A stretch of DNA of 64,000 bases from Octopus vulgaris (Eukaryota), in NCBI GenBank assembly GCA_951406725.2, contig OX597835.1:25854001-25918000 (forward strand). The letters are read 5' to 3'. The translations under genes were made by a program, and so were the position numbers. The notes under the pieces were generated by a model. It saw nothing but the letters and a program-made list of their open reading frames with translations. It did no database searches and had not been told where the DNA came from. How positions within the stretch are numbered: the stretch's first letter is position 1; each line of letters begins with the position of its first letter. This document shows positions 17,820 through 51,650 of this stretch, one piece after another.

Positions 17820-18016
17820 TTAACAAAAAAAAAACCCAAACCCCCCCAAAACAGAAGACGAAGCCAGGTGGTGTAGACAACAAATAGATGTATTAATATG
17901 ACGCTCGGGAAGTGAAAAAGTCTTTACGTTTCGAGCCTATGCTCTTACGCAGAAAGGAACACAGAAAGAAACAAGGAGAGAAAATAAAAAATGTGTAGTG
18001 GCTAGTGATCTATCAT

Positions 18017-18020
<4 letters not shown>
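17820..18020 (-). mobile_element. Penelope-like terminal fragment, family P1
   Basis: Homologous to 49816-50020. Degenerate core CTGCGTA-A-GAGC-atag-GCTC-GAAA-CG-TA. Confidence 0.6.
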
Positions 18021-49504: not shown

Positions 49505-49748
49505 TATATTTATATATATATACACACACACATATATATATATACATATATATATATACATGCATGTATATATATATATATACATACATATACATACATA
49601 TATATATATTACGGAGATGTACTTGCATAGCAAGTGACTTGATCTGAGATCGTGTGCTGGAAAGGAAACAATTGCAGCGTGGAAGGTATTTGTAAGCCAT
49701 TTAAGAAACACACAAAACCGTTAGATTCACTTCAACATTTAAATTTAA

Positions 49749-49798
49749 TTTGTCAAAATATTTTCATCGCTTGAGACCGCGACCTGTTCACTGACAAA
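49749..49798 (-). ncRNA. Minimal hammerhead ribozyme variant with compensatory G3-C8 core pair
   Basis: TTTGTCA-GTGAACA-G-GTCGC-ggtctcaa-GCGAT-GAAA-ATAT-TT-TGACAAA: 7-bp stem I, 5-bp stem II and palindromic AATATT stem III. Confidence 0.7.
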
Positions 49799-49815
49799 GC
49801 TTCGTGCTGCACGAG

Positions 49816-50020
49816 TCACCATGATAGATTGTTAGACACTACATACATTTTTTCTCTCCTTGTTTCTCTCCTTGTTTTTTCTGTGTTCCTTTCTGTAGAA
49901 GAGCGTAGGCTCGAAACGTAAAAGACTTTTTCTATTCCTGAGCGTTATACTAATACATCTGTTTGTTTTGTACACCACCTGTCTTCGTCTTTTGTTTTTT
50001 CGTATTCTCTTCCTATATAT
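49816..50020 (+). mobile_element. Penelope-like terminal fragment, family P1, with A6U hammerhead at 49889-49924
   Basis: CTTT-CTGTAGA-A-GAGC-gtag-GCTC-GAAA-CG-TA-AAAG. Confidence 0.65.
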
Positions 50021-51363: not shown

Positions 51364-51499
51364 TACATATATATACATATATATACGCATACATTTACAT
51401 ACATAAATACATTAGTAGCTCATAACATACTGTCTACATTAAATCGTCTCGCCATGTTAGGCCGTTGACCTCTGCACATTTTTCCTCTCTCCGTTTCTT

Positions 51500-51650
51500 G
51501 TCATTCTCTCTCCATTTTTGCCCTCTTAAGCCTTTCTTTCGAAGAACGTAGACTCGAAACGCAAAAGACTTTTCCATTCTTCCCGAGCGTTAAACTAATA
51601 CACCTGCTTGTTGTTCCTACACCTCTCTTGGTTTTTTTTTGTTTTAAAAG
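51500..51650 (+). mobile_element. Penelope-like terminal fragment, family P1, degenerate
   Basis: cttt-CTTTCGA-A-gaacgtagactc-GAAA-CG-CA-aaag and ccgagcgttaaactaatacacctgcttgttg. Confidence 0.55.

What the first reader, a model, noticed from the sequence alone, without database searches (positions are those of the whole stretch)
49749..49798. Natural hammerhead ribozyme candidate with a swapped G3-C8 core pair
Seen: the minus strand folds as a minimal type-I hammerhead, with a perfect 7-bp stem I (TTTGTCA/TGACAAA), a 5-bp stem II, GAAA, a self-complementary AATATT stem III and a UUU site. The core reads GUGAACA instead of CUGANGA. Established: C3 and G8 form a Watson-Crick pair in the active hammerhead, and compensatory swaps can retain activity. 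Penelope-associated minimal hammerheads with palindromic stem III cleave as dimers. Inference: both partners changed together, which suggests selection for function. Standard CUGANGA searches would miss this family.
Basis: partly seen in the sequence, partly recalled or inferred. Interest (0 to 1): 0.8.

Follow-up and report, generated by a model that had tools for sequence, protein, structure and literature searches.

The report
Octopus retroelement hammerhead with swapped core
A 50-base motif at the end of a jumping gene present in over a thousand copies in an octopus genome has the layout of a small self-cutting "hammerhead" RNA with two paired core letters swapped, and related jumping genes keep that pair matched in three different letter combinations, so it is likely a slow-cutting natural variant, though cutting has not been shown.

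Summary
Confirmed. It lies in a solo, truncated terminal repeat (pLTR) of an RT-GIY-YIG Penelope-like element (PLE). The genome, inferred to be Octopus vulgaris, holds 1,376 copies with exact flanks. A full-length element carries the motif at both ends.

G3-C8 is the family state. Two sister families carry U3-A8 and C3-G8. Across 13 related families, positions 3 and 8 always form a Watson-Crick pair (8 C-G, 4 U-A, 1 G-C; permutation p about 1e-4), which points to selection on the active fold.

Against strict need for cleavage:
- a G3·G8 sub-lineage still spread (140 copies);
- a sister family has C9;
- genomic 5' ends show no excess at the cut site.

Likely a slow, dimer- or protein-assisted ribozyme; cleavage is untested. 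This copy is probably inert. Lab G3-C8 swaps and natural U3-A8 are published. I found no natural G3-C8 in the searched library, but four key papers were not held. This scan noted G3-C8 candidates before in protist PLEs and phages. Verdict: new variant of a known kind.

The parts
49609..49811 (-). Solo, 5'-truncated pLTR plus tail of an RT-GIY-YIG Penelope-like element (family A, older subfamily), ending in a (TA)n-rich tract
   Evidence: 96% identical to copy L003; same unit at both ends of full-length element L183; no ORF match in the window
49749..49798 (-). Minimal type I hammerhead motif with G3-C8 core
49792..49798 (-). Stem I, 5' arm (7 bp)
49785..49791 (-). Core positions 3-9; G3 = 49791, C8 = 49786
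   Evidence: G3 in 98 and C8 in 96 of the first 100 listed copies, counted by eye
49784..49784 (-). Extra nucleotide (G) between A9 and G10.1
   Evidence: G in 12 of 13 related families; the published consensus has H (PMC4209133 supplement)
49766..49783 (-). Stem II (5 bp; G·U closing pair in this copy, G-C in the family) and loop II
   Evidence: loop II differs between subfamilies while stems do not
49757..49765 (-). G12-A13-A14-A15.1 and self-complementary AAUAUU (helix III can form only between two copies)
   Evidence: predicted dimer duplex only -0.2 kcal/mol
49755..49756 (-). Predicted cleavage site, 3' of U17 (UUU triplet)
   Evidence: inferred from hammerhead numbering; not shown
49749..49755 (-). 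Stem I, 3' arm
49609..49700 (-). Remnant of the ORF start (ATG at 49700), including the ~60-nt tail present in only some copies
   Evidence: the same ATG opens the RT-endonuclease frame in L183 and L184; two 3'-end classes

Best explanation
The motif is the minimal hammerhead in the terminal repeat of a Penelope-like retrotransposon family, with the core 3-8 pair fixed as G-C, and it likely cuts the element's RNA slowly, only when two copies pair through the AAUAUU palindrome and probably with help from the element's protein. Shown: position in both pLTRs of full-length elements, about 56 nt upstream of the ORF start; fixation of G3-C8; Watson-Crick covariation of 3-8 and of stem II across related families. 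Inferred: helix III forms between the two pLTRs of a tandem transcript or between two RNAs; the G3-C8 pair positions the 2'-OH of nucleotide 8 as in the laboratory double mutant; U17 rather than C17 keeps G3 from being strongly trapped at the cut site; the cut trims read-through or tandem transcripts, a step that helps long-term persistence but is not needed for each insertion. The copy in this window is a solo passenger and probably does nothing.
For: Full-length L183 has the motif twice in direct orientation 4,261 bp apart around an RT-GIY-YIG frame. 1,376 copies with exact flanks; 84 of the first 100 listed have the intact core and none has C3 (counted by eye). Sister families in the genome: B has U3-A8 (1,451 copies) and C has C3-G8 (3,412 copies). 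Metagenome relatives: motif found in 10 of 14 distinct loci with a 3' end, 7 C-G and 3 U-A. 13 of 13 families are Watson-Crick at 3-8, permutation p = 1.2e-4, with U-A in four separate places on the RT tree. 0 of 500 shuffles reach the covariation score. None of 17 differences between the old and young subfamily falls in the 42 stem, core or palindrome columns (p = 0.013, or 0.038 counting loop II as one event). The laboratory G3-C8 swap rescues activity (passages of PMC9901934, PMC11167929, PMC8495972). A G3-C8 variant is disfavoured by C17 (PMC3884650 passage, 'data not shown'); this family has U17.
Against: No cleavage data. A G3·G8 form has 140 copies, 45 of them on contig C16, with distinct flanks and both PLE end types, so a master with a broken pair still retrotransposed. 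Family C, young and with intact 1,312-aa frames, has C9 instead of A9 in 95 of the first 100 listed copies. Only 27 copies begin at the cut site, 12 of them explainable as stem I fold-back junctions, against 15 at a control position and 2,673 intact. 5' ends instead pile up about 60 nt upstream. The dimer helix III is predicted at only -0.2 kcal/mol, and G3·U17 forms with p = 0.52-0.67 in three of four folded contexts. Published minimal PLE hammerheads are weak even as dimers (PMC4209133), and cleavage was dispensable for insertion in vitro in another PLE (PMC11167929). An extra G after A9 was detrimental in a viroid hammerhead (recalled, not read). Five of the metagenome motifs were picked by eye, which could bias towards paired 3-8.
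Confidence: 0.6

Rival explanations
1. The hammerhead fold is conserved as a structure, for example a binding site for the element's protein or a signal for reverse transcription, and cleavage is negligible.
For: Insertions derive from uncut RNA. Successful lineages carry C9 or G3·G8. Cleavage mutants did not affect insertion in vitro (PMC11167929).
Against: U4, G5, A13 and A14 are kept in nearly all families, and the 3-8 pair, a contact of the active conformation, covaries. A purely structural role would not obviously need these.
Confidence: 0.25
2. A once-active ribozyme is now a relaxed relic in the octopus clade; G3-C8 was fixed in one master copy and is simply inherited.
For: G-C arose once among 13 families. 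Each octopus family has an oddity (G3-C8, 3-bp stem I with U3-A8, C9), and a G3·G8 lineage exists.
Against: Reaching G-C needs two transversions that end in a pair. Old and young subfamilies differ in loop II and flanks but not in core or stems. In contig sets from other organisms, listed variants inside the motif lie in loop II or keep a G·U pair.
Confidence: 0.12
3. A chance hairpin, or a sequence constrained by protein coding.
For: A loose descriptor hits 0.43 times per shuffled window; short open frames run through the motif.
Against: Equivalent position 3' of the ORF in 13 families, on the coding strand. One-base indels between subfamilies exclude a conserved reading frame, and the ORF starts downstream.
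Confidence: 0.03

Closest known systems
Minimal hammerheads (min-HHR) of metazoan Penelope-like elements (Cervera and de la Pena 2014, PMC4209133)
   Same: Type I topology in the pLTR, an extra nucleotide between 9 and 10.1, G10.1-C11.1, palindromic 15.2-16.2, mostly solo copies and inverted pairs. A natural U3-A8 variant is described in Schistosoma.
   Different: Core pair G3-C8, not mentioned in the main text read nor found in the searchable supplement file. Extra nucleotide G, where their consensus has H. A longer 7-bp stem I and a 6-nt palindrome.
Laboratory C3G/G8C double mutants (Anolis Poseidon HHR, PMC11167929; pairwise mutagenesis, PMC9901934)
   Same: Same swapped pair; single mutants are dead and the double mutant partly active.
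   Different: Engineered, whereas this is fixed in a natural family of over a thousand copies. Activity here is untested.
Natural core-variant hammerheads (Perreault et al. 2011, PMC3088659)
   Same: Natural covariation at 3-8.
   Different: The passages read report U3-A8 only.
EN+ PLEs with a CX2-5CxxC linker (Neptune or Nematis clades, PMC8557442)
   Same: RT followed by a C-terminal GIY-YIG, a CX3CxxC linker, (TA)n targets, tail, inverted truncated partner.
   Different: The clade was not placed on a tree with reference elements; Neptune versus Nematis is undecided.

Membership tests
Hammerhead ribozyme (type I, minimal) | Stems I and II around the core, with helix III possible as a dimer | tested here: met
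   dimer helix III predicted to be weak
Hammerhead ribozyme (type I, minimal) | Literal CUGANGA consensus | tested here: not met
   G3 and C8; no Rfam match
Hammerhead ribozyme (type I, minimal) | Watson-Crick pair between 3 and 8; U4, G5, A6, A9, G12, A13, A14, A15.1-U16.1, H17 intact | tested here: met
Hammerhead ribozyme (type I, minimal) | Self-cleavage 3' of N17 | not testable with these tools
   Indirect genomic test negative; only contigs, no raw RNA reads, were available
PLE min-HHR | Located in the pLTR of an RT-bearing element, on the sense strand | tested here: met
   L183, both ends
PLE min-HHR | Extra nucleotide after A9, G10.1-C11.1, palindromic helix III remnant | tested here: met
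   Family state met; this copy has G·U at 10.1-11.1; the extra base is G, not H
EN+ Penelope-like element | Single ORF with RT and C-terminal GIY-YIG | tested here: met
   GIY-YIG PF01541 at 23.4 bits (cut-off 22.6) on the L137 protein; RVT_1 in 6 of 38 aligned relatives; the longer 839-aa query gave no Pfam hit
EN+ Penelope-like element | pLTR, tail, inverted truncated partner | tested here: met
Neptune or Nematis clade | CX2-5CxxC linker | tested here: met
   CX3CxxC in the translation; motif definition from PMC8557442
Neptune or Nematis clade | Phylogenetic placement with reference elements | not tested
Non-LTR retrozyme | Non-coding tandem repeats of a canonical type I hammerhead unit | tested here: not met
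   Copies are dispersed and belong to a coding element

The most novel reading that the evidence does not exclude
An animal retrotransposon family carries a working natural G3-C8 hammerhead, made tolerable by U17, and its clade repeatedly swaps the 3-8 pair (about five double changes) by passing through lineages with a broken pair that the element can carry for a while, the 140-copy G3·G8 lineage being one caught in the act.
Probability: 0.35. Interest if true: 0.6.

Novelty: new variant of a known kind. Interest (0 to 1): 0.45.

Why it matters
Whether the weak minimal hammerheads of Penelope-like elements cut in vivo or are passengers is open (PMC4209133, PMC8557442, PMC11167929). The 3-8 pair belongs to the active conformation, so its covariation across 13 families is sequence evidence that the active fold is under selection. 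The genome also supplies natural controls (G3-C8, G3·G8, U3-A8, C9 lineages) for one assay. Practically, descriptors fixed at CUGANGA or U3-A8 and Rfam models miss this family, so hammerhead censuses and statements that some PLEs lack hammerheads may be undercounts.

Tried and rejected
Rfam: no hammerhead match among the 150 listed window hits and no match in the local region or for the motifs in 15 related loci.

Sequencing runs: no RNA holder listed on record. The four runs laid were contigs and cannot show ends.

Loci L061, L062 and L065 looked like full elements but are a larger composite repeat carrying the pLTR. The GIY-YIG frame upstream in L003 appears to belong to another element.

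Per-column conservation among copies was set aside because many loci were chosen by exact pattern. Protein coding through the motif was rejected (indels, ORF starts downstream). An idea that an extra 5' G reflects a cap was not supported clearly (mixed letters). No motif was seen in 4 of 14 metagenome loci (L210, L217, L229, L230). The midpoint-rooted tree put family B outside, but the outgroup-rooted tree puts A sister to B plus C; I use the latter.

Four papers were not held: Lunse 2017, Przybilski and Hammann 2007, Hammann 2012, Martick and Scott 2006. One supplement file of PMC4209133 could not be searched. These could already report natural G3-C8.

Full report
OBSERVATION. It folds at -13.2 kcal/mol, z = -2.48. 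A descriptor free at positions 3, 7 and 8 returns only this site in the window. In 100 shuffles it returns 0.43 hits per window, but only one hit in all with stems this long. Rfam has no match in the region.

WHAT IT IS. The window lies on G000:C22 of a 2.8-Gb genome. I infer Octopus vulgaris because a protein named for that species sits on a contig of the same length as C18 and groups with a sister family. The motif belongs to a dispersed ~200-bp unit: 425 exact copies of the commonest 49-mer and 1,376 with exact flanks and a free core. Of the first 100 listed, counted by eye, 84 have the intact core, 98 have G3, 96 have C8 and none has C3. Copies show two 3' end classes about 60 nt apart (26 and 57 of 95 copies, after dropping 13 microsatellite-only rows), inverted truncated partners and frequent (TA)n-rich flanks, as described for PLEs (PMC8557442, passages). 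Walking upstream led through a ~1.1-1.3-kb low-complexity 3' region to a GIY-YIG C-terminus. L183 is a full-length element: motif at 2142, ATG at 2234, an RT-endonuclease frame (broken by a stop and a frameshift in this copy) and the motif again at 6403. Another copy has a 1,025-aa open frame. Pfam gives GIY-YIG just over cut-off, and RVT_1 in 6 of 38 aligned relatives. The window copy is a solo pLTR (49609-49811) with no ORF match in the window, a C11.1-to-U change and a one-base loop deletion.

COVARIATION. Two sister families, 48-54% identical in protein, form one clade with family A, A being sister to B plus C (support 1.0). They carry the motif at the same place. B has U3-A8 (1,451 copies; U3 in 90 and A8 in 98 of the first 100). 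C has C3-G8 with C9 (3,412 copies). Stem II changes between them are compensatory. A metagenome scan gave 31 loci, of which 15 (14 distinct) include the 3' end. A motif lies just downstream of the ORF on the coding strand in 10 of 14: five found by descriptor, five by a loose pattern and by eye. Seven are C-G and three U-A. Two of the ten have a further core defect (G12 in L219, G5 in L228). All 13 families are Watson-Crick at 3-8; permutation p = 1.2e-4; U-A appears in four separate places on the RT tree, one of them weakly placed. Parsimony by eye gives about five double changes; no formal ancestral reconstruction was run, and whether G-C came from C-G or U-A is not determined. On a 13-row alignment (two rows of family A, L228 left out, L207 and L219 imperfectly aligned in stem II), 0 of 500 shuffles reach the covariation score of 0.808; that control ignores relatedness. 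The extra base is G in 12 of 13 families, and the helix III remnant is a perfect palindrome in 12 of 13. Within family A, 17 differences separate the old and young subfamilies and none lies in the 42 stem, core or palindrome columns (p = 0.013 to 0.038). In four contig sets from three coded organisms, variants of 5% or more inside the motif lie in loop II or keep a G·U pair.

AGAINST. A G3·G8 form has 140 copies, 45 on C16. Among my loci it makes up 14 of 25 copies of one loop variant, with different flanks and both end types, so these are independent insertions. Family C is young and abundant despite C9. Only 27 copies begin at the cut site with both preceding bases changed, 12 of them consistent with stem I fold-back junctions, against 15 at a control position and 2,673 intact. 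The anchors differ slightly, so the comparison is rough. In loci chosen for carrying the motif, 56 of 95 copies begin within ten bases of a site 60 nt upstream of the cut. That site follows a branch-point-like and pyrimidine-rich stretch present in 139 copies, so it may be a splice acceptor or a start site. Inserted copies therefore come from uncut RNA. The dimer helix III is predicted to be marginal, and G3·U17 competes in the monomer.

MECHANISM. Established from papers: minimal PLE hammerheads are inactive as monomers and weak as dimers (PMC4209133, parts 1-3 of 4 read; review PMC6765202, part 2 of section 11). In Anolis Poseidon the C3G/G8C double mutant partly rescues cleavage, cleavage needs the protein, and insertion does not need cleavage (PMC11167929, passages). 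Pairwise mutagenesis found the G:C swap the only rescue in that motif (PMC9901934, passages). G3-C8 works better without C17 (PMC3884650, passage, data not shown). Inferred: family A's motif cuts slowly after two copies pair, trimming tandem or read-through transcripts; this benefits long-term survival but is dispensable for single insertions; U17 is permissive for G3. Confidence 0.6 for this; about 0.95 that it is a PLE min-HHR by descent.

KNOWN AND NEW. Natural U3-A8 is published (PMC4209133; PMC3088659, passages). Searches, and term look-ups in PMC6155905, PMC10085705, PMC6962438 and bioRxiv 2026.07.22.740005, found no natural G3-C8 hammerhead and no description of this family's motif. Four key papers and one supplement file could not be seen, so priority is not established. 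The scan's own notes list G3-C8 candidates in protist PLEs and phages (unchecked), and none for this DNA.

VERDICT. A real feature and a new variant of a known kind, well supported by comparative evidence, with catalysis unproven. Interest 0.45.

Noticed in passing
window 49889-49924 (+); related copies near 6-92, 14779-14939, 17848-18018, 39374-39533, 51476-51644: A neighbouring, back-to-back repeat family carries a minimal hammerhead layout whose core has U at position 6 (CUGUNGA) in 14 of 16 descriptor hits in my loci: a second non-canonical core.
   Followed up: partly
G000:C16, e.g. L090-L094, L096: G3·G8 sub-lineage of family A, 140 copies, 45 clustered on one contig; the clustering is unexplained.
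   Followed up: partly
L202:1826-1887 (-); L208:2497: C9 instead of A9 in a very abundant young family with intact 1,312-aa frames, and independently in a metagenome relative.
   Followed up: partly
L207:4973; L228:2358: Related motifs with U15.1-A16.1 and G15.1-C16.1 closing a perfect palindrome.
   Followed up: no
L183:2100-2125; window 49811-49815: A branch-point-like and pyrimidine-rich stretch ending in AG lies directly upstream of the site where 5' ends of solo copies pile up; splice acceptor or transcription start.
   Followed up: partly
L061, L062, L065: A 2-kb-scale composite inverted repeat carrying the pLTR and its inverted partner recurs at three places on C1.
   Followed up: no
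window 39505-39619 (+): Rfam 5S rRNA match at 39 bits (gathering 38), overlapping a repeat end; probably repeat-derived.
   Followed up: no
window 424-533: Near-perfect ~50-bp inverted repeat.
   Followed up: no
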